DNA of 30,536 nucleotides. Source: a virus. The notes beneath the pieces were generated by a model. The model was given only the letters and a program-made list of their open reading frames with translations, was not told the origin of the DNA and ran no database searches. The stretch is taken from the IMG/VR virus record IMGVR_UViG_3300027532_000001; one strand, written 5' to 3'. This document shows, in pieces, positions 6,485 through 15,243 of the stretch. Numbering within the stretch: the stretch's first letter is position 1; each line of letters starts with the position of its first letter. The position numbers and the translations under genes were made by a program.

Positions 6485-9400
6485 ATGCCTTTGTATGCAC
6501 TTTCTAGCAATACTGATGGGAGAAATACTCTACATACAATAGATCCAGTTACTCGTACAGATACTTTCGTTGGCAATTTTCCCATTAGATATAGGGATTC
6601 GAATAGAAACGATAGATCTGTTGGCACATTACAGAACATTATATCTATCGGTGATAAACTATACATCCTTCCGTCAAGAGCAGGGGGATTAAGAGAGCTA
6701 ATTATATCTACAAATACAGTATCTATAAGTCGTGATGTTACTGGTGGGGATTTCACTGGTCAATTAAGGAGAGTCCCCAATGGAATTGTAGTTCTAGGCA
6801 CAAATGTTTATTTCGCTTTTGGAAATGAAATCTTCGCAATCAATACAGCACTTACATCGGGATACAGTCTGATTGGTCGGACAGGAACTCTTACTGGTTA
6901 CAAACTATTTACTTATGACAACGTTCTCTATGCACTTTCAAATAATGTAACTGTCCATAAAATTGACCCAACAACAATCGATAATGGAGTTATTGCCACT
7001 GAAAGGATTGGGGATCTAAGTGTTAGTATTGCTGGACTCGTTCAACATGATGGTGTATTATATGGAGTCACAGCAACTAACAGACTTTATCAAATAACTA
7101 TTTCTGCTAGTTCTGCAGATAGTGCACTCCTCGATACTCTTACTGGCAATGCTAGATCGATTAGGGATCTCACATCAGATGATCCTGGCTCCGTCACCCC
7201 ACCCAGAGTAGAGATCACTTCGCAGCGGCTCCATGATATTCGAGCCTCGGGCGACCCAGTTGTTGAGCCTCCAGGATCGGTTCAAGTCCAGTTTGGGTTA
7301 GACCACTCCATCCGTGCTCCAGAAGTTAATTTATTTGTACAACTTACTGTAATCTCAACAGAATTTGATTTAGGGACTCGTAATATATTAATCTTAGGCA
7401 GATTTAGAAATGAACTGAAACTCATAAATGGTGGTGTAGAGATTTTCTCATTTGAGGTTGGTGGGGATAGAAACCCCTTCTCGATGGGAATTAGAGGGAA
7501 TCGACTCTATTTATACACTCTTGGATTAGATGCGACACCCATTATTCAAGTTTATTCATGGAACCTTACTGCATCCTCTATAGAAGTCATAAGATTACCA
7601 GAGGAAGATATCCCAATTCGTAATGTAAGTTTAGGGTTAGACGTACAAACAAGTAATCGTAATCAATTTGGTGAATTTGTTGTACGGCGCGATATAGGTC
7701 AAGAAACAAGAATGCATTTGTTGAATAATAGAATTTATCTAGTAAATACAATCCAGAGACATCTTTTTCCAGAGGGAATTAGATACCAAGTATCTGTATA
7801 TGACTATAATGGTGGATTTCATCCCGAAGAATCAGTAAATGTTGAATTCCCCCCTGATTACCTAGAGTCATTTATCTATAGAGACAGAATATACTTATTT
7901 AACATTCAATCAGAATCATCACCAGGAGTATCTTTTTCCACAGTTAGAGTATATGATTTATCTGGCAATCGACTAACTAATGAGGAATTTAGGACATTCT
8001 ACAGAAGAGGTGGTAGAGTATTTATAGATAGAGGGTTCATCTATGAATTGTTCAACATAGATAGTGGTGGTCAGCCATCTGATCTCAATTTTCCTGATGG
8101 AACGTATCTGTCAGCAATACCATTAGGTGAGAATTTTGATATACGTACCAATCCTCGACGGTTTCTTACAGGATTAAGATCGAGTACAACCATAAATGAT
8201 TTCGCTAAATTACCAGATGACGTCAAGATACTACTTTCCAAAAATCATCAAATTAGATCGACAGCTATTCTAAAGGTTCCAACTGATGGCGATGTGCAGG
8301 TCACATTCGACCAGAGTCATTCCATCCGCGCTGAAGGCGACCCGTTATTGTTGCACGGTCACATGGCAGTGTTTGATCATACTCCTGATCAAGCAATCAT
8401 GCATGTGTATGATACTACTGGCAGGAGGATAGAGGATAGAAGTTTCCCTGTAGACCCATTGGGATTGAGCGTCCCAGTACATCCGTCTCCTCCATCAGCA
8501 AGACAGACTATAGGTCGCATTGACGGCGCGGCTTTGTCAGGAGACAGAATCTATCTGATAGTACGAGAGAGATCTAGTGATAGACCTTCTGAATTCAGGA
8601 CAGAAATATTCGTCATAGGGCTAAATGGAGAAAGGTATATAGAGGAGGAGGAAGTCTTTACAGCGGCCATTGAAAATTCTCTATTGGCACCAGGATTAGC
8701 TGCTACAGATACTAGATTATACTTTGTGCAGAGAGACTCTGATAGCGATGTTTTTAGGATCTTAGTCCATAACACTGCTGGAGTAAGGATAGAGAGTGAA
8801 GATTTCAATTTAGTTGGTAGTCCAGCTTCTGAATTGCACGGGTTGACAACCACTCAAAATAGATTGGTCGCTCTCAGATCCTTTAATAGCAACGTTACTA
8901 ACGGTAGGATTGAATTCTATGAATTCTCAGGATTCTTGAGGGAATCGGAAGGATTCGAGCTACCTGACGAAGATGAAACTGGACTTACATTTTTTAGAGG
9001 AGTCACCGCCATTGATGACAGACTATATGTATTGACAGGAGTGCCTACAGGTGCTACATCTCGAATAAGAGTCTATGGAGTAGATGGCACAAGATACGCT
9101 GACGAAGATTTCACATTAGAATTAAGCGGAATCCTCCCTGCAGCTATCACTCGAGTCCCTCGGTATGACGAGAATGTCGTAATTGAATTTGGGAAACAAC
9201 ACCAGATCCGCGCTGGTGGCGCACTAGACTTCATAGAATTATCTGAATTTGACGTTAGAGTTCTCAACATAAGTAAGAATCACCAAATTCGTGGGTCTGT
9301 TGCCAGCGTCGAGTCGGAACCAGTAGACCTTCGGATAGAGTTCAGTAAATTCCATCGCATACGTGCTGATGGTGATGTCACGATCGCATCCAGAGAAGGT

Positions 9401-12400
9401 GATATTAGAATTACTTTCAGATCCTCACACCGGATAAGGGGTGGTGGTGATATTAGAACTACTCTGCCTGTAGAAGTTAGAGTCACATTTGACCCTAATT
9501 ATTCCATACGTGGGGGAGGGAATCTAGGCTCTCCAGATAAGCTCGTTGAATTTGTATCATTTCACCAACTTAGAGGTGGTGGTGACATTATTGTAAATAG
9601 AACAGAAGATAATAGAGTCATATTTGGACTGAACCATGGTATAAGAGCGTCCTCCACATTAAGAATTAAGCTGCCACCTATTGCTGGTGTTGGACTGGAA
9701 GTCTATATCAATGGACAACTATACCCATTTGCTAGAAAAAGGGTTAGAGTTAAGAGACCATCTGACTCTCCTTCCAGGGCTAAAATCCATGGTCTGATAC
9801 GAGCAAATACTCTGGCAAGGTTACGTCCATCTAGTGATCAAGAAGTTCAAATCTATGACAGAACTCTCAGAAGATTGGTCTTTGGTGGCTACTTGTACGA
9901 GCCTGACACTGAAATCAAATCTGGCAATCAACTCGTAGAAATCACATTCAACTGTTTGGGGTACACTTATCGTCTGCAAAAGACAGACATATCCCAAGAA
10001 CAAGGAATCAATGTTATCAAGCAAACTACTGTGTTAGCACAGATGGAAGCACTTGTTAACATAATGGGAGATGAAGGATTCAGAGTTGGTATAGCACCAT
10101 CTGGTGGCACTACATTAACTTCAGATATTCGGTTCACGGATGTCTACTCCGCGCTGGAACAACTCGCTTCTCTAAATAGTAGTAATGTTGTAGTTGAACA
10201 GAATAAGATAGTATCCATTGTTAATGCAGATAACATTCCTGATTCTAGAGTAGTGCTTAATGAAAGAAATGTTATGTCTATCAAATCCTCAGTTGATAGA
10301 CAAAGCTATAGATCCTTCCAAAGAATGATTGGTGGGTTCGTAACTCGTTCTGAATTGCTATCTGGAGATGGTGGTTCTAGAGCATTCCGTATTGGTGGGA
10401 TGGGTGCTGCTGACTCAACTTCATACTTTGGAGCATCTGCACCAGTAGGACCATTATCTCCGGTAAATGACTTAGGATTGAGATCCCAATTTAGGGGAGA
10501 ACTGGAAAGAATAGATATTTTCGATGAGTTAGTTTCACCAGGTTGGTCGGACCCAGCCTTCCCGCAGGCAGCGCCGGGGTTGGCATGGAAAACGACTCAA
10601 GTTGTTCCCGAAAGGGGTTTACTGGATGAGAGCACAATATTCAATTTCCCCATTCCTCCTCGGTATGTTGAGTCGAATGTTAGAGCCTACATCGCCAGCA
10701 TAGAAATTTCATTCTCTCGGGTAAACATCTCCCTAACCGGGCTGGTAACGAGTGACGATGCGGATGAAGAAATACAGTTCTCATTGCTTGGAATCAACAA
10801 TCTCACACTCATAGTCTCCACTGAATCAGGCGACTCATTAAGCTGGAAGATATCAGATCTAATCTCAGATGGTGACACGAATCCATATTCTTGGGGTCTT
10901 CCAAATAACATTTCAACGCAATTTATCACAGATCTCGCACCGCAAGGAGCCAAAGTTGCTCTTGTAGACACTACTATTGAAGGGGTAGACGTTGATGCTG
11001 TATCTGTGTATACTGATTCTCCAGAAATAAATATGCTCGCTAATCCCGAAGTATTCTTGCCATATTATGACGATGCTGATTTGAAGAGAGTTCTAGATTT
11101 GAGATTGTATAATGGTAAGCTGAGAGTTCTTCTAGATAACAATCTCACCAGAAGGACTGAGCTCACAGCATTAATCCAGCATGTGAACAGCGAGCAGAGT
11201 TGGGCCGCTGAAGTGACACAGGTACAAAACATTCCTCTATTTGATGCAGATGGATTGTCTGGATTCGGTGACGATGTTTATGCCACTCAAGGACTAGCAT
11301 GGAAGACTAAGAGAGAAGGTATAGATGCATCCCCTAATCCTGCCTTGAGCTTCATTACCAATAGTGCCTATGGATTCATATCAACCGAGCCATTCCCTTC
11401 TGCGTACATTAGAGATGGGGCCGACACCCCAAGAGCATTTGTATCTGAATTGTTATTTGATGCAAAGAATAACAGAGTGAGTGTGACCCTCTCTGATAGA
11501 CATACCGGAGATGTACAAAATTCTCTCTACCTGCTAGCCGAAAATCAATTATGGGTAATAGACCCATTAAACCCATTTTTGACATTGGGAGTATTCGGTC
11601 TGAGAGGAAATCTCCCAACATCATTAGATAAACCTAATGGTTTATTTAGTCATAGAGGGTCTTTGTATTGCATTGATATAACTAACAAATCTCTATGGAG
11701 GATCAATTCCCTAGATCCTTCTGATACTTCTGGGCAATTCGGTAGAGTTGGACTTCTACCCAGCTTTGTGGAGTTAAACCCAGAATGGAACGCATCAATT
11801 ATCTTTGAAGATGAGTTGTATCTTGTGGGGAGTGAAAACAGAGTCTATAAGATTGACATCACGGACCCTGATAATGACGATGATGGATTTGGGTTAATAG
11901 GTGCATTTCCATATGATCCAGATCCTATTGACCCACCTCAAATAATAGATTTGACTATTCATAATGGAGTTATGCTAGGTATTTCATCGGGATTTCTATG
12001 GATTGTTGATCTCAATGGAACAAGCCTGGTGTTGGTAAGTAGACTCCCGACTGCGTTTATACCCTTTCCTGGTTCTTCCACAGGATATACAGAAATATTC
12101 AATACCTATTATTCCATTTCTTCCATAAATGGTGAAATATATCTAACAGATGAACAAGGGGGAGTATGGAGATTAGGACTATTAAATCCAGGCAATCCTC
12201 CAGGTGAGATGCATAAAGCAGATATCGATTCTGATGAAGCTGGTCAGATTGCGATGCTGCCAACACCATTACAATTAAGGGGTAATTATCTCGATCCTCG
12301 TATTCCTGTTATACCCTCTCCGGTAAGATCGATGATTTCATATACGGAAGCATCGGTGGATGATGTTAATCTATTTTCGATAGATCGTCTACCTTTCCCA

Positions 12401-14065
12401 GGTGCACCACATATATTGATAGACTGGGGTCTGTATAGACTAGATCCAGACAATTCCGGTGACACTACCAATTTCGGCCCAATTTCTGGACCATTCTACT
12501 TCCAGGATGACATACCATTTGTCGCACAGTTCTTTGGTATGGAAAATGCGGATGGTGAATTGTATGTCTTCCTATTGACCAGACAAGGGTTCTATAGAGT
12601 CTTTGTAGTTGATCCCAATAATCCACACGATGCAGATAGAGGCAGATTAGTTGGCAATATATCTGCTCTCATAATTGAGCCATCTAACCCCACAACATTC
12701 CATGACATATGGTATATCGTAGATAAATCCACGAATATTCTGTACAGTGCTCCCATAGATAATCCCGCCGCTGCAACAGAAGTCAAAACTCTGGGTGCTG
12801 GTGTCCCAGACATGGTCGCATTAACAATTCTAGAAGGGAGACTATATGGGGTTTCCAATCCATTAGACTCTACTTCTGATGCGCAGCTTTGGGTAATTGA
12901 CCCGACCAATGCTGGGGTTACGGAAGTATTTGTAGGCAATCTGCCGCCAGAGATTAGAGACATTCTATCATTGACAACATTTAGAGGTGATATGTGGCTG
13001 TCCTCTTCTGATTCATTATGGATTATTGACCACAATGACCCAGATAATGTTCAAGGAAAATTCGGTAGAGTCAGTGGGTCCAGAGGGCGGATCATATCTT
13101 CGTTTGTTGGGTCACGTAATCGACCCATCCAACTTACGGAGCATGCTCTATCAAATCTGCATCTAGCTGTCAAGACTCTAGATAACTCTGAATACATATG
13201 GTCTATTGACACATTATCCTCCATAGATCGCACTAACAGATTCAATTGGTACAGCCGAGACATCGACCAGGTTCTGATAGACAAGCTCCGCGCTGGAACG
13301 GCGGAGGCTATGTTCTTGGATGGGTCTGACAGTAACGTGCTGCTATCTGTCAGGAGATTCCGCTCCCCGATTGGCAGAAACGGAATCTTGTTCGACTTAG
13401 GTGTTGGTGATACAGGCTTTAGAGAAAGGGCTCTGGAAAATCAACTGTTCGTGACAGCCATAGTGGATTCTTCCCTAGGAGTGGTGGACATCCCGAATAG
13501 AGAGTTCATTTCACAAATTGATAACATTACGGTGGACAGGGTTACTGCTGTCCGTTTGAATGCAGCGGACCAAATCATTGGTCCTGGAGAGTGGTCATTC
13601 AACATAGCTACCCAAGAGATTATTCCTCCAGCTTACTTGAGGTTGCTGAGATTAACCGATTTGATCGAAGTCACGGAAGAGGGACGTTGGATTGTGGAAG
13701 AATCCAGCGGGGTGTCTCCGTCGGTCCATGACACAGAATACGTTAATTTGCCTCTTGTCGAACAAGGCAGGTCGTTAAGTCGAGCTAGACTGAGACAGCA
13801 CCGGAATCCATCGGAATCATTGATGATCACGATCTTCCCCAATGCTCGAGTGCATATAGATGACGGGGAAGGGGTTCGGATTGACACCAGTCTCACGGGT
13901 TCGCTGGGAACGTTGAACCCGGACCAAGACGAAATCTACATCACAGACTATCTAGAGATTAACACCGAGGGTGACATTCTGGTCTATACCGTGAGGGTTT
14001 CGAGGAGAGTGTTCGAATCGAAGCTGAGACCGTTCTGGAATAGGTTGCTGGGCAGTAGAAGGTAG
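6485..14065 (+). CDS. Giant 2526-aa modular tail / host-recognition protein
   Basis: One uninterrupted ORF covering a quarter of the genome. Several blocks of blade-like repeats are present (LYxL / RIYLx...VYDxxGxRxxxEDFxL / LWVIDPxNP...G.LP...LY). There are eleven copies of a short H-x-I-R-[AG]-x-G-D repeat. A central segment (aa ~1090-1330, EVQIYDRTLRRLVFGGYLYEPD...) resembles distal-tail or hub proteins. Duplicated GLAWKT modules start at 10577 and 11291. Confidence 0.75.
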   Translation: MPLYALSSNTDGRNTLHTIDPVTRTDTFVGNFPIRYRDSNRNDRSVGTLQNIISIGDKLYILPSRAGGLRELIISTNTVSISRDVTGGDFTGQLRRVPNGIVVLGTNVYFAFGNEIFAINTALTSGYSLIGRTGTLTGYKLFTYDNVLYALSNNVTVHKIDPTTIDNGVIATERIGDLSVSIAGLVQHDGVLYGVTATNRLYQITISASSADSALLDTLTGNARSIRDLTSDDPGSVTPPRVEITSQRLHDIRASGDPVVEPPGSVQVQFGLDHSIRAPEVNLFVQLTVISTEFDLGTRNILILGRFRNELKLINGGVEIFSFEVGGDRNPFSMGIRGNRLYLYTLGLDATPIIQVYSWNLTASSIEVIRLPEEDIPIRNVSLGLDVQTSNRNQFGEFVVRRDIGQETRMHLLNNRIYLVNTIQRHLFPEGIRYQVSVYDYNGGFHPEESVNVEFPPDYLESFIYRDRIYLFNIQSESSPGVSFSTVRVYDLSGNRLTNEEFRTFYRRGGRVFIDRGFIYELFNIDSGGQPSDLNFPDGTYLSAIPLGENFDIRTNPRRFLTGLRSSTTINDFAKLPDDVKILLSKNHQIRSTAILKVPTDGDVQVTFDQSHSIRAEGDPLLLHGHMAVFDHTPDQAIMHVYDTTGRRIEDRSFPVDPLGLSVPVHPSPPSARQTIGRIDGAALSGDRIYLIVRERSSDRPSEFRTEIFVIGLNGERYIEEEEVFTAAIENSLLAPGLAATDTRLYFVQRDSDSDVFRILVHNTAGVRIESEDFNLVGSPASELHGLTTTQNRLVALRSFNSNVTNGRIEFYEFSGFLRESEGFELPDEDETGLTFFRGVTAIDDRLYVLTGVPTGATSRIRVYGVDGTRYADEDFTLELSGILPAAITRVPRYDENVVIEFGKQHQIRAGGALDFIELSEFDVRVLNISKNHQIRGSVASVESEPVDLRIEFSKFHRIRADGDVTIASREGDIRITFRSSHRIRGGGDIRTTLPVEVRVTFDPNYSIRGGGNLGSPDKLVEFVSFHQLRGGGDIIVNRTEDNRVIFGLNHGIRASSTLRIKLPPIAGVGLEVYINGQLYPFARKRVRVKRPSDSPSRAKIHGLIRANTLARLRPSSDQEVQIYDRTLRRLVFGGYLYEPDTEIKSGNQLVEITFNCLGYTYRLQKTDISQEQGINVIKQTTVLAQMEALVNIMGDEGFRVGIAPSGGTTLTSDIRFTDVYSALEQLASLNSSNVVVEQNKIVSIVNADNIPDSRVVLNERNVMSIKSSVDRQSYRSFQRMIGGFVTRSELLSGDGGSRAFRIGGMGAADSTSYFGASAPVGPLSPVNDLGLRSQFRGELERIDIFDELVSPGWSDPAFPQAAPGLAWKTTQVVPERGLLDESTIFNFPIPPRYVESNVRAYIASIEISFSRVNISLTGLVTSDDADEEIQFSLLGINNLTLIVSTESGDSLSWKISDLISDGDTNPYSWGLPNNISTQFITDLAPQGAKVALVDTTIEGVDVDAVSVYTDSPEINMLANPEVFLPYYDDADLKRVLDLRLYNGKLRVLLDNNLTRRTELTALIQHVNSEQSWAAEVTQVQNIPLFDADGLSGFGDDVYATQGLAWKTKREGIDASPNPALSFITNSAYGFISTEPFPSAYIRDGADTPRAFVSELLFDAKNNRVSVTLSDRHTGDVQNSLYLLAENQLWVIDPLNPFLTLGVFGLRGNLPTSLDKPNGLFSHRGSLYCIDITNKSLWRINSLDPSDTSGQFGRVGLLPSFVELNPEWNASIIFEDELYLVGSENRVYKIDITDPDNDDDGFGLIGAFPYDPDPIDPPQIIDLTIHNGVMLGISSGFLWIVDLNGTSLVLVSRLPTAFIPFPGSSTGYTEIFNTYYSISSINGEIYLTDEQGGVWRLGLLNPGNPPGEMHKADIDSDEAGQIAMLPTPLQLRGNYLDPRIPVIPSPVRSMISYTEASVDDVNLFSIDRLPFPGAPHILIDWGLYRLDPDNSGDTTNFGPISGPFYFQDDIPFVAQFFGMENADGELYVFLLTRQGFYRVFVVDPNNPHDADRGRLVGNISALIIEPSNPTTFHDIWYIVDKSTNILYSAPIDNPAAATEVKTLGAGVPDMVALTILEGRLYGVSNPLDSTSDAQLWVIDPTNAGVTEVFVGNLPPEIRDILSLTTFRGDMWLSSSDSLWIIDHNDPDNVQGKFGRVSGSRGRIISSFVGSRNRPIQLTEHALSNLHLAVKTLDNSEYIWSIDTLSSIDRTNRFNWYSRDIDQVLIDKLRAGTAEAMFLDGSDSNVLLSVRRFRSPIGRNGILFDLGVGDTGFRERALENQLFVTAIVDSSLGVVDIPNREFISQIDNITVDRVTAVRLNAADQIIGPGEWSFNIATQEIIPPAYLRLLRLTDLIEVTEEGRWIVEESSGVSPSVHDTEYVNLPLVEQGRSLSRARLRQHRNPSESLMITIFPNARVHIDDGEGVRIDTSLTGSLGTLNPDQDEIYITDYLEINTEGDILVYTVRVSRRVFESKLRPFWNRLLGSRR

Positions 14066-14091
14066 AGTAGTCGTCACCACCTTCCACTGCC
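14051..14091. terminator. Hairpin between the convergent late and minus-strand operons (bidirectional terminator candidate)
   Basis: GGCAGTAGAAGGT (14051-14063) pairs with ACCTTCCACTGCC (14079-14091) at 12 of 13 positions, with a 15-nt loop. It overlaps the giant gene's stop (TAG 14063-14065) and lies 8 nt from the stop of 14099-14299. Confidence 0.5.
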
Positions 14092-14098
14092 CGTTGGG

Positions 14099-14299
14099 TC
14101 ACAGGGCTCTCCACCCAGACTCACACGTAATCACACTCTTGGGGTGTGGGTGAACATTCAAGGTCTGAGTGTAGACTCGACCAGATGAGTCACATACCCA
14201 CCTGATCGACGAACCCGAAGGGTATGCCGGGAGTTCGAGTTCTTCTCCACAAGCACTCATTCCCAACACGATCCCGGCCGCTGCGAGCAATCTCTTCAT
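14099..14299 (-). CDS. 66-aa lipoprotein (mature ~50 aa, two further Cys)
   Basis: AAGGAG lies 6 nt upstream of the ATG at 14299. MKRLLAAAGIVLGMSAC fits the lipobox rule. It is the last gene of the minus-strand operon and converges on the giant tail gene. Confidence 0.7.
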   Translation of the reverse strand: MKRLLAAAGIVLGMSACGEELELPAYPSGSSIRWVCDSSGRVYTQTLNVHPHPKSVITCESGWRAL

Positions 14300-14323
14300 G
14301 TTGTTCTCCTTACGGTGTCCGGA

Positions 14324-14530
14324 CTACCTGTGCAGCCATTCCCCGAACGCACCAGAGTCGCGGAACACTTCCGCACGTTCTTCTCTCGAACTACGCTTGA
14401 ACAAGCACGTCTTGCAGGTCACGTCATCGGCATCCTCTGCGATGGTCTTCTCGTCGATGATGAGGATCCCGCAGTCGGTCCAGATGTTCGACATCGGTCG
14501 AGGGGCGTGGAGCTTGCGTCGTTGACTCAT
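14324..14530 (-). CDS. 68-aa Cys-containing hypothetical protein
   Basis: The ATG at 14530 lies only ~10 nt downstream of a strong -10 element, so the mRNA would be near-leaderless. Contains DCG...CKTC. GC-rich ORFs overlap it on the opposite strand, so the coding call rests mainly on operon context. Confidence 0.45.
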   Translation of the reverse strand: MSQRRKLHAPRPMSNIWTDCGILIIDEKTIAEDADDVTCKTCLFKRSSREERAEVFRDSGAFGEWLHR

Positions 14531-14539
14531 GATGGCTCG

Positions 14540-14568
14540 AGTATACGCTACTCGAACCTGGGTGTCAA
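14540..14568 (-). promoter_or_regulatory. Sigma70-like promoter TTGACA-N17-TATACT with a 7-bp inverted repeat overlapping the -10
   Basis: The minus strand reads TTGACA (14568-14563), a 17-nt spacer, then TATACT (14545-14540). The arms TCGAGTA / TACTCGA (plus-strand 14537-14543 and 14549-14555) form an operator-like palindrome over the -10. Confidence 0.55.
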
Positions 14569-14569
14569 G

Positions 14570-14983
14570 CTATCCGTCGTACAGCGTCCGCAGCACCACA
14601 GGTCCAAACTCCGGCACCGCCATCCCCACGATGGCAGTCTCCGACGCCCTGCGGTAGTTGTCAACCCAAATGGGCGTGTCTACATCACAGGTGTACATCC
14701 CTCCCTTGTAACCTTCGAAGTCTTTACCCACCGCTGACTTCAACATCTGGATTAGATCCTTCACGAGCATCTCGCCGTTCTCGGACCAAGTGAGTGCCAG
14801 CTGGCTGTAGTCTCCACGGTAGGAGATGAGGCTCACTGGAGAGACGCGGCAGAAGTCGAAGACTACGTGGCGGTCGTCGCCGTCGGAATCCTTCAGGGCG
14901 CTGGGATACGTATTCCGTGACAGCGCGATGACGAGCTTGTCGAGTTCTACGGTCTCGAGACATTTGAAGGTTGTTTCATGCAT
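14570..14983 (-). CDS. 137-aa hypothetical protein
   Basis: The internal ATG at 14983 (MHETTFKCLETVELDKL...) overlaps the upstream gene's TGA by one base (TGATG). The longer track ORF reaching 15145 would overlap the upstream gene heavily. No motif recognised. Confidence 0.55.
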   Translation of the reverse strand: MHETTFKCLETVELDKLVIALSRNTYPSALKDSDGDDRHVVFDFCRVSPVSLISYRGDYSQLALTWSENGEMLVKDLIQMLKSAVGKDFEGYKGGMYTCDVDTPIWVDNYRRASETAIVGMAVPEFGPVVLRTLYDG

Positions 14984-15243
14984 CAGTCTTTCCAGTCCAT
15001 TCCGAGGAATGCCTCGTTGACCCGTCTCTTCCACTCTTCCTTCGGGAAAGACCTTGTGTACAGGAATGCTATGAGTTCGGTCGCGCTGAAACCACCCCTG
15101 CAGCTGCCAACGACAATGGCTTCCTGTGGGCCGTACACGTGACAATAGACTTCATAGGCTCTCAGGGTGATGGCAGAGTCTATGAGAGGAACTTTTCTCG
15201 AACGGGTCCACTCTATGGGGACTTGGATTGGGTGTTTAGTCAT
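14983..15243 (-). CDS. 86-aa hypothetical protein
   Basis: Translationally coupled on both sides: its start overlaps the stop of 15240-15668 and its stop overlaps the next start. AYEVY...G.CRGGFSATELIAFLY resembles a small phage protein family I cannot name. Confidence 0.55.
   Translation of the reverse strand: MTKHPIQVPIEWTRSRKVPLIDSAITLRAYEVYCHVYGPQEAIVVGSCRGGFSATELIAFLYTRSFPKEEWKRRVNEAFLGMDWKD

What the first reader, a model, noticed from the sequence alone, without database searches (positions are those of the whole stretch)
14099..14568. Self-promoted two-gene moron ending in a tiny lipoprotein, convergent on the receptor-binding giant gene
A near-consensus promoter (TTGACA-N17-TATACT, 14568-14540) has a 7-bp inverted repeat over its -10. 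It drives a 68-aa Cys-containing ORF and a 66-aa lipoprotein. The lipoprotein has an AAGGAG RBS, the lipobox LGMSAC, and a mature length of ~50 aa with two further Cys.

The unit ends at a hairpin shared with the giant tail gene. It therefore has its own promoter, operator and terminator, which is the classic moron layout.

In T5-like phages the small lipoprotein Llp blocks the FhuA receptor, and its gene lies next to the receptor-binding protein gene. The arrangement here is a close positional parallel. That suggests receptor masking, either for superinfection exclusion or to protect progeny virions.
Basis: partly seen in the sequence, partly recalled or inferred. Interest (0 to 1): 0.62.

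Follow-up and report, generated by a model that had tools for sequence, protein, structure and literature searches.

The report
Small phage lipoprotein behind conserved leaderless gene
An uncultivated phage carries a short promoter-driven unit in which a well-conserved 68-residue protein is followed by a swappable 66-residue lipoprotein gene facing the end of the giant tail gene; the lipoprotein may block re-infection as in phages T5 and Rtp, but this is an ordinary kind of phage accessory gene and the function is untested.

Summary
There is an 11/12 sigma-70-type promoter, a 10-nt inverted repeat over its -10, two small ORFs and a strong hairpin at the junction with the 2526-aa tail gene.

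Both ORFs are real genes.
- ORF A (68 aa) has an 83%-identical homologue in a related phage (L006). pN/pS is 0.24 in its frame. The -35 and -10 hexamers are conserved while the spacer has drifted. The ATG lies 9 nt (window) or 6 nt (L006) after the -10, so the mRNA is leaderless or nearly so.
- ORF B meets the PROSITE lipoprotein rule (Cys17; mature 50 aa; two further Cys). Its single true homologue (51% identity, L007) keeps the signal peptide, lipobox and both Cys. That homologue also lies convergent on a β-strand-rich gene of unidentified function, with a hairpin between.

The whole unit is not a moron. ORF A and its promoter are conserved, and ORF A is the best-conserved early-arm protein. 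Only the lipoprotein is variable cargo; L006 has two membrane proteins in its place.

ORF B is not homologous to T5 Llp/Cor or Rtp45, but it shares their class features. The Rtp locus (rtp45+rtp44, convergent on gpJ) is the closer layout parallel. Receptor masking is plausible (about 0.35) but unproven. The host is unknown and the sequencing-run tool for RNA data was closed. This scan has not found the unit on other DNA.

The parts
14563..14568 (-). -35 hexamer TTGACA
   Evidence: 11/12 promoter. Conserved as TTGACC in L006.
14540..14545 (-). -10 hexamer TATACT
   Evidence: Identical in L006, with the same 17-nt spacing.
14534..14558 (.). Inverted repeat GGTTCGAGTA-N5-TACTCGAGCC spanning the spacer, the -10 and the expected start site; candidate operator
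   Evidence: Only 0.9% of 51-nt genome windows hold a repeat this good. Not conserved in this form in L006.
14324..14530 (-). ORF A: 68 aa, no signal peptide or transmembrane segment; His8, Cys20, Cys39 and Cys42 conserved; leaderless or 3-nt-leader mRNA
   Evidence: pN/pS is 0.24 in its frame, against 1.05 for the antisense ORF. No family or PDB match.
14306..14311 (-). Shine-Dalgarno AAGGAG for ORF B, 6 nt before the ATG
   Evidence: Read directly from the sequence.
14099..14299 (-). ORF B: 66-aa prolipoprotein (signal MKRLLAAAGIVLGMSA|C; mature 50 aa; Cys36 and Cys59 conserved)
   Evidence: Homologue P0005 at 51% identity. It is the only frame open in both loci, pN/pS 0.58, and both Cys codons changed synonymously.
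14249..14251 (-). Codon of Cys17, the predicted lipid-modified first residue of the mature protein
   Evidence: PROSITE PS51257-type rule applied. Invariant in the homologue.
14050..14092 (.). Hairpin at the convergent junction (14-nt arms, 15-nt loop); the left arm overlaps the last codons of the giant gene
   Evidence: - strand RNA -30.2 kcal/mol, z -5.0. A hairpin of different sequence occupies the same place in L007.
6485..14065 (+). Giant 2526-aa last gene of the tail module (context; presumed host-recognition protein)
   Evidence: No match in Pfam, PHROGs, PDB sequences or 50,697 phage records. Its role is inferred from position only.

Best explanation
The unit is the last transcription unit of the phage's leftward arm. 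That arm runs 21546 to 14099 on the - strand and appears to be read by host RNA polymerase.

A sigma-70-type promoter starts an mRNA at, or 3 nt before, the ATG of ORF A. ORF A is a conserved 68-aa cytoplasmic protein with one His and three Cys conserved. Its function is unknown; a small metal-binding regulator is the guess.

The same mRNA carries ORF B behind a strong Shine-Dalgarno site. ORF B is a swappable cargo gene. Its product is exported, lipid-modified at Cys17 and cleaved to a 50-residue lipoprotein. That lipoprotein probably holds one disulfide (Cys36-Cys59) and is anchored in the host envelope. A stable hairpin ends or stabilises the transcript where it meets the end of the giant tail gene.

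The most likely role of the lipoprotein is that of T5 Llp, Rtp45 and Cor. It would bind or distort the phage's own envelope receptor from the periplasmic side. Infected cells and lysis debris would then stop adsorbing further virions.

Shown here: the anatomy, the coding status of both genes, promoter conservation, and the variable-cargo status of ORF B.

Inferred: the transcription start, termination, lipidation, the disulfide, early timing, and the exclusion function.
For: Anatomy.

Promoter and ORF A:
- The promoter hexamers and spacing are conserved in L006 while the spacer and flank diverge.
- ORF A is under purifying selection. pN/pS is 0.24, and 23 of 42 differences fall at third codon positions. 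The first 13 codons show about 6 synonymous differences against about 2 non-synonymous, plus an in-frame codon indel. Translation therefore starts at the first ATG, 9 nt after the -10, or 6 nt in L006.
- ORF A is the best-conserved early-arm protein between the two phages: 83% identity, against portal 79% and terminase 66%.

ORF B:
- It meets the lipobox rule.
- Its only real homologue keeps the lipobox and both Cys. The frame is conserved, with synonymous changes in both Cys codons.
- In L007 the homologue again lies immediately convergent on a β-strand-rich gene of unidentified function, with a hairpin between.
- In L006 the same slot holds two membrane proteins, and the tail gene's C-terminus is different.

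Known exclusion lipoproteins share the class features:
- T5 Llp: mature 62 aa, two extra Cys, next to oad.
- Rtp45: mature 57 aa, two extra Cys, in a two-gene locus convergent on the gpJ homologue.
- Their mechanisms are described in PMC9586334 and PMC12685063. The pairing of RBP loci with cognate exclusion genes is described in PMC8594841.
Against: - ORF B shows no sequence similarity to Llp/Cor (phrog_1119) or Rtp45 beyond the signal peptide.
- Both structure predictions were too poor to compare folds: pLDDT 48 for ORF B and 43 for ORF A.
- The family has only two members, and the host is unknown.
- The L007 homologue (51% identical) faces a gene whose C-terminus is unrelated to the giant's. 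This does not fit strict lipoprotein/receptor-binder coupling.
- The phage encodes three other lipobox proteins, so adjacency to the tail gene could be incidental.
- The giant gene's receptor-binding role is not shown.
- The partner gene is a conserved small cytoplasmic protein, not a receptor-binding protein as in Rtp.
- The hairpin lacks a U-tract.
Confidence: 0.4

Rival explanations
1. ORF B is a lysis or envelope-remodelling accessory. It would act as an o-spanin-like outer-membrane lipoprotein, or as a partner of the nearby membrane-tethered metzincin cluster, at the end of infection rather than in exclusion.
For: - It is a small lipoprotein with Cys residues, like Rz1-type o-spanins.
- No endolysin or spanin was recognised among the window ORFs I scanned.
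- In L006 the equivalent slot holds a two-TMD 69-aa protein and an N-terminal-TMD 120-aa protein. These could be read as holin-like and i-spanin-like.
Against: - No i-spanin-type gene (N-terminal TMD plus periplasmic domain) is adjacent to, embedding or overlapping ORF B. ORF A has no transmembrane segment.
- ORF B has no C-terminal TMD, so it is not a u-spanin.
- The unit is driven by a consensus host-type promoter and is separated from the lysis-like cluster by an unrelated gene pair.
- The 69-aa L006 protein has an acidic tail, unlike most holins.
Confidence: 0.17
2. ORF B is a host-envelope fitness factor with no link to the phage's own receptor. Examples would be defence against other phages, altered surface properties, or a role in the bacterium-sponge association. 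Its position next to the tail gene would only reflect the arm end being a tolerant insertion site for accessory genes.
For: - Ends of convergent arms are permissive for cargo. The slot's content differs among three loci.
- pN/pS is relaxed at 0.58.
- The L007 homologue sits beside an unrelated gene C-terminus.
- The phage carries several lipoproteins with near-identical signal peptides.
Against: - Two homologues in two different phage contexts both lie directly convergent on the 3' end of a large, lower-GC gene, each with its own hairpin. Random cargo placement does not predict this.
- No integrase or repressor was detected among the ORFs scanned. A classic lysogenic-conversion role therefore has no obvious setting.
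Confidence: 0.25
3. ORF A and/or ORF B are chance ORFs, and the promoter and hairpin are chance matches.
For: - Public gene callers skipped ORF A and called an antisense 135-aa ORF instead.
- Neither ORF matches any family.
- Promoter-like sites in the region are no more frequent than in shuffled sequence: 7 found against 5.1 expected.
Against: - Frame-specific purifying selection acts on ORF A. The antisense frame carries a stop in L006 and has pN/pS 1.05.
- The promoter hexamers are conserved within an otherwise diverged flank.
- ORF B is the only frame open in both loci, and the lipobox and Cys residues are conserved through synonymous changes.
- The hairpin has z -5.0.
Confidence: 0.03

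Closest known systems
Rtp45 superinfection-exclusion lipoprotein in the RBP locus of small siphophages (phage Rtp, Drexlerviridae; PMC12685063, PMC8594841)
   Same: - Small lipoprotein: mature 57 aa against 50 aa here.
- Two additional Cys in the mature part.
- Encoded in a two-gene unit on the opposite strand, convergent on the 3' end of the tail-tip gene (rtp43/gpJ).
- Such loci vary by horizontal exchange.
   Different: - No sequence similarity.
- In Rtp the partner gene is the 311-aa receptor-binding protein Rtp44, and the lipoprotein comes first. Here the partner is a conserved 68-aa cytoplasmic protein, and the lipoprotein comes second.
- The host and receptor are unknown here.
T5 Llp (phrog_1119, 'Cor superinfection exclusion protein'; PMC9586334)
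   Same: - Lipobox signal peptide.
- Mature size about 50-62 aa.
- Two further Cys, one close to the C-terminus (..TCEG.. against ..TCESG..).
- The gene is adjacent to a host-recognition gene.
- A host-type promoter is consistent with early expression.
   Different: - No homology beyond the signal peptide.
- T5 llp is monocistronic and divergent from the 5' end of oad, with overlapping promoters. It is not convergent on the 3' end.
- FhuA blocking has been shown for Llp; nothing has been shown here.
Morons of lambdoid phages (promoter-gene-terminator inserts such as bor and lom; Hendrix/Juhala concept, from general knowledge)
   Same: - A strong promoter upstream and a hairpin downstream.
- An envelope-targeted product.
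- ORF B is present in one phage and absent from a relative.
   Different: - The promoter belongs to ORF A, which is conserved rather than extra DNA.
- ORF B has no promoter of its own.
- The hairpin has no U-tract.
- The unit lies at the end of an arm, not inserted between genes that are adjacent in relatives.
- There is no sign of lysogeny.
Rz1-type o-spanins
   Same: A small lipoprotein with periplasmic Cys residues.
   Different: No i-spanin partner is adjacent or overlapping. The gene is not in a recognisable lysis cassette, and it is driven by a host-type promoter.
Leaderless phage mRNAs such as lambda cI from PRM (general knowledge)
   Same: The ATG lies 6-9 nt after the -10 hexamer, so the transcript begins at or within 3 nt of the start codon. 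An inverted repeat overlaps the promoter.
   Different: ORF A has no helix-turn-helix and no family match. Autoregulation is only conjecture.

Membership tests
T5 Llp / Cor family (phrog_1119) | Sequence match to the family profile | tested here: not met
   ORF B gives no phrog_1119 hit at E<=0.1. The T5 Llp control hits at 1.1e-19. BLASTP aligns only the signal peptide.
T5 Llp / Cor family (phrog_1119) | Lipoprotein signal peptide and a small mature protein with two further Cys | tested here: met
   The PS51257-type rule is met. ORF B is 50 aa mature with Cys at +20 and +43; Llp is 62 aa with Cys at +11 and +58.
T5 Llp / Cor family (phrog_1119) | Gene adjacent to the receptor-binding protein gene | tested here: inconclusive
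   ORF B is adjacent to the 3' end of the last tail gene. That gene's receptor-binding role is not demonstrable. The orientation also differs from T5.
T5 Llp / Cor family (phrog_1119) | Blocks the phage's own receptor; expressed early | not testable with these tools
Rtp45-type exclusion lipoproteins of RBP loci | Sequence similarity to Rtp45 | tested here: not met
   BLASTP E 3.7.
Rtp45-type exclusion lipoproteins of RBP loci | Co-encoded with a dedicated receptor-binding protein in a unit convergent on the tail-tip gene | tested here: not met
   The convergent two-gene layout is shared. However, the partner here is a 68-aa cytoplasmic protein that is conserved across phages with different tail genes.
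Moron | Own promoter | tested here: inconclusive
   The unit has an 11/12 promoter that is conserved in L006. It belongs to ORF A. ORF B has only a 24-nt gap with an RBS, and no promoter was found within ORF A.
Moron | Own terminator | tested here: inconclusive
   A strong hairpin is present (z -5.0), but no U-tract follows it.
Moron | Extra DNA absent from related phages between otherwise adjacent genes | tested here: not met
   ORF A and its promoter are present in the relative L006 at 83% amino-acid identity. Only ORF B is absent there, and the flanking genes differ as well.
Bacterial lipoprotein precursor (PROSITE PS51257 rule) | K/R within the first 7 residues, an uncharged hydrophobic stretch, [LIVMFWSTAG](2)-[LIVMFYSTAGCQ]-[AGS]-C, and Cys at position 15-35 | tested here: met
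   The homologue P0005 also meets the rule. SignalP and LipoP were not available.
o-spanin (Rz1-like) | An adjacent, overlapping or embedding i-spanin gene with an N-terminal TMD | tested here: not met
   The hydropathy scan of all arm genes found no such neighbour. ORF A has no TMD.

The most novel reading that the evidence does not exclude
ORF A and its leaderless promoter may form a conserved 'expression dock' at the end of the early arm in a previously undescribed, apparently sponge-associated phage lineage. Into this dock, different envelope-targeted exclusion genes would be swapped together with the distal part of the tail gene: a lipoprotein here and in L007, two membrane proteins in L006. 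ORF B would then found a new, sequence-unrelated family of receptor-masking lipoproteins outside the enterobacterial phages. ORF A would be its small metal-binding regulator, acting at the inverted repeat over the -10.
Probability: 0.2. Interest if true: 0.5.

Novelty: new member of a known kind. Interest (0 to 1): 0.3.

Why it matters
If ORF B masks the receptor, it would extend the pairing of a small periplasmic lipoprotein with the host-recognition gene beyond coliphages. So far that strategy has been worked out structurally only for T5 (FhuA) and Rtp (LptDE). Here it would apply to an uncultivated phage lineage with an unknown host. The lipoprotein could then serve as bait to identify that phage's receptor.

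The practical corrections are modest but concrete:
- ORF A is a real, conserved gene with a leaderless mRNA. Public gene calls replace it with a spurious antisense ORF.
- The accessory part of the unit is the lipoprotein alone.

Tried and rejected
1. Homology of ORF B to giant repeat proteins. phmmer E-values reached 4.5e-17 against 1.84 billion representatives. I rejected these hits: they are sums of 8-27 individually insignificant repeat matches, and many alignments include the signal peptide. ORF B gives no reportable match to the window's own giant protein, which was included in that search.

2. A Sushi/CCP-like domain. A 15-residue motif (YPSGSSIRWVCDSS) scores 12.7 bits against an HMM built from P0007 repeats. 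The homologue P0005 lacks it, the Cys spacing differs, and Pfam Sushi gives no hit. Rejected.

3. Fold comparison with Llp or Rtp45. AlphaFold2 models of ORF B (pLDDT 48) and ORF A (pLDDT 43) are too poor. Sequence searches of the PDB gave only noise.

4. More relatives. Searches with ORF A, ORF B, portal and metzincin found nothing in IMG/VR, JGI metagenomes or GTDB genomes. The terminase found only relatives at about 25% identity. There was no DNA or protein match for the region, or for ORF B, in 50,697 phage records.

5. Conserved operator. The window's inverted repeat is not reproduced in L006. Only a shifted CCCAGGT(T)CGAGTA block is shared.

No whole genome is held for this window.

7. 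Rfam and tRNA scans were empty.

Full report
CONTEXT

The window is nearly a whole tailed-phage genome of about 31.6 kb, known only from metagenome assemblies. No genome is held for it and no cultured phage record matches it. Identical copies occur on 17 contigs from several samples, the longest 31,668 bp.

The + strand carries the terminase, portal, S49 protease, capsid, connector and tail genes. It ends with a 2526-aa gene at 6485-14065. The - strand arm, 21546 to 14099, carries a VapE-type primase/helicase, small Cys-rich proteins, a lipid-anchored reprolysin-like protease, a 142-aa lipoprotein and a coupled 86/137-aa pair. The two ORFs of the finding lie at its far end. The unit is therefore the last transcription unit of the leftward arm, meeting the end of the tail operon head-on.

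OBSERVATION

Every element is present.
- The promoter TTGACA-17-TATACT (14568-14540, - strand) scores 11/12. The exact form TTGAC-N18-TATACT occurs only twice in the window, both times on the - strand.
- The inverted repeat over the -10 has 10-nt arms with one mismatch. Only 0.9% of 51-nt windows of this genome contain one as good.
- ORF A (68 aa) and ORF B (66 aa) are separated by 24 nt that contain AAGGAG.
- ORF B meets the PROSITE lipoprotein rule: Cys17, mature length 50 aa, and two further Cys.
- The hairpin at 14050-14092 overlaps the giant gene's stop codon. It is far more stable in the - strand transcript (-30.2 kcal/mol, z -5.0) than in the + strand transcript (-22.8, z -1.5). It has no U-tract on either side.
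- The stop codon of the upstream gene abuts the -35, so read-through from upstream is not blocked.

ARE THE ORFS GENES?

ORF A has an 83%-identical homologue (P0003) on a contig of a related phage, L006. That phage shares the portal (79%), terminase (66%) and protease (60-65%) but almost nothing else of the early arm.
- In ORF A's frame pN/pS is 0.24, and 23 of 42 differences fall at third codon positions.
- Every other frame gives 0.43 or more. The antisense 135-aa ORF that public gene callers chose has a stop in L006 and pN/pS 1.05.
- The first 13 codons show about 6 synonymous differences against about 2 non-synonymous, plus an in-frame one-codon indel. Translation therefore starts at the first ATG (14530), not at Met13.

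ORF B has one true homologue, P0005 (64 aa, 51% identical), found by an exhaustive phmmer search.
- It keeps the n-region, h-region, lipobox, Cys+1 and both further Cys, and also the GR.YTQ, HP.P and CESGW motifs.
- ORF B's frame is the only one open in both loci, and pN/pS is 0.58.
- 13 of the 32 identical residues use different codons, including both Cys codons.
- The other phmmer hits, to giant repeat proteins, are artefacts of summed weak repeat matches.

PROMOTER AND START

In L006 the homologue is preceded by TTGACC-17-TATACT. In the alignment both hexamers match, while the spacer and the upstream flank are largely different. This is the pattern expected of a functional promoter.

The ATG begins 6 nt after the -10 in L006 and 9 nt after it in the window. 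With a start 7 nt downstream of the -10, the L006 mRNA would begin with AUG and the window's mRNA would have a 3-nt leader.

The inverted repeat is statistically unusual but is not conserved as such in L006. The two promoters share only a CCCAGGT(T)CGAGTA block, displaced by 4-5 nt. Its role as an operator remains open.

WHAT VARIES AND WHAT DOES NOT

ORF A with its promoter is the conserved part. The gene downstream of it is not.
- In L006 the slot holds a 69-aa two-TMD protein and a 120-aa protein with an N-terminal TMD. The convergent tail-like gene has an unrelated, SLSGGGV.YT-repeat C-terminus.
- On the 811-nt contig L007, the ORF B homologue again lies directly convergent on a lower-GC, β-strand-rich gene that has no family match. 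A perfect 15-17-bp hairpin lies between them, again more stable in the lipoprotein's sense.
- That neighbouring gene's C-terminus is unrelated to the giant's.

So the small lipoprotein is found twice at the same kind of junction. However, lipoprotein similarity does not track similarity of the neighbouring C-terminus, and three loci are too few for a co-variation test.

COMPARISON WITH KNOWN SYSTEMS

In T5 (NC_005859), llp is a 77-aa prolipoprotein gene next to oad (pb5). It is divergent from oad's 5' end, with overlapping promoters.

In Rtp (NC_007603), the exclusion lipoprotein gene rtp45 and the receptor-binding gene rtp44 form a two-gene unit on the opposite strand, convergent on the gpJ homologue rtp43. 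The roles of Rtp44 and Rtp45 are taken from PMC12685063. The general pairing of RBP loci with cognate exclusion genes is taken from PMC8594841. The Rtp layout is the closer parallel to this window.

Mature Llp (62 aa), Rtp45 (57 aa) and ORF B (50 aa) are all small, and each has two Cys beyond the lipidated one. They share no detectable sequence similarity. ORF B does not match phrog_1119, which T5 Llp hits at 1e-19. Fold comparison was impossible because both AlphaFold2 models were of low confidence.

ORF B therefore plausibly works like these proteins, but it is not a member of their families.

RIVALS

An o-spanin role lacks the obligatory i-spanin neighbour. A generic envelope cargo role cannot be excluded. 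It is favoured by the relaxed pN/pS and by the abundance of lipoproteins in this phage. Chance ORFs are excluded.

VERDICT

The 'moron' is really a conserved leaderless gene, with its promoter, carrying a variable lipoprotein passenger. The lipoprotein is a credible but unproven analogue of Llp/Rtp45, with a probability of about 0.35-0.4. That makes it a new member of a known kind, of modest interest. This scan has not reported the same unit on other DNA.

Noticed in passing
window 16647-16697 (-) and L007 77-129: The signal peptide of the window's reprolysin-like lipoprotein (MLKKIAALVGMVVGMSC) is about 78% identical to that of the small-lipoprotein homologue in L007 (MLKKLAAVVGMVVGMGAC). This points to a shared host group, or to exchange of signal-peptide modules between phage lipoprotein genes.
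   Followed up: partly
window 14546-14562 and L006 9972-9988: The spacers of the two ORF A promoters share a CCCAGGT(T)CGAGTA block. It is displaced by 4-5 nt relative to the -35 and -10 hexamers, which nevertheless keep 17-nt spacing. It may be a regulator-binding site.
   Followed up: partly
window 17739-17767 (-); L006 5862-5890 (-) and 9966-9994 (+): Exact TTGAC-N18-TATACT promoters recur in both phages: two in the window and two in L006, against well under one expected. The one at 17767 has a leader of about 115 nt and is not leaderless.
   Followed up: partly
L006 10223-10858: In the related phage, the slot after the ORF A homologue holds a 69-aa two-TMD protein with an acidic tail and a 120-aa protein with an N-terminal TMD. 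The 3' end of the 120-aa gene overlaps the convergent tail-like gene by 86 nt. Neither protein has a family match.
   Followed up: partly
window 14315-14737 (+); L001 3879-4286: Public gene calls on identical contigs annotate an antisense 135-aa ORF in place of ORF A. That frame is interrupted in L006 and shows pN/pS 1.05, so it is a mis-annotation.
   Followed up: yes
window 6485-14065 (+): The 2526-aa protein has no match in Pfam, PHROGs, PDB sequences, or tblastn against 50,697 phage records. Among the ORFs scanned against Pfam and PHROGs, none matched a tape-measure family.
   Followed up: partly
window 14570-15243 (-): The 137-aa gene just upstream of the promoter matches phrog_12889, of unknown function (E 1.2e-11). 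Its stop codon abuts the -35 of the ORF A promoter. Read-through from the upstream genes is therefore possible.
   Followed up: no
L007 7-35: A second strong hairpin (-21 kcal/mol, z -3.6) lies 50 nt upstream of the lipoprotein homologue. The gene is thus bracketed by hairpins, and no recognisable promoter was found.
   Followed up: partly
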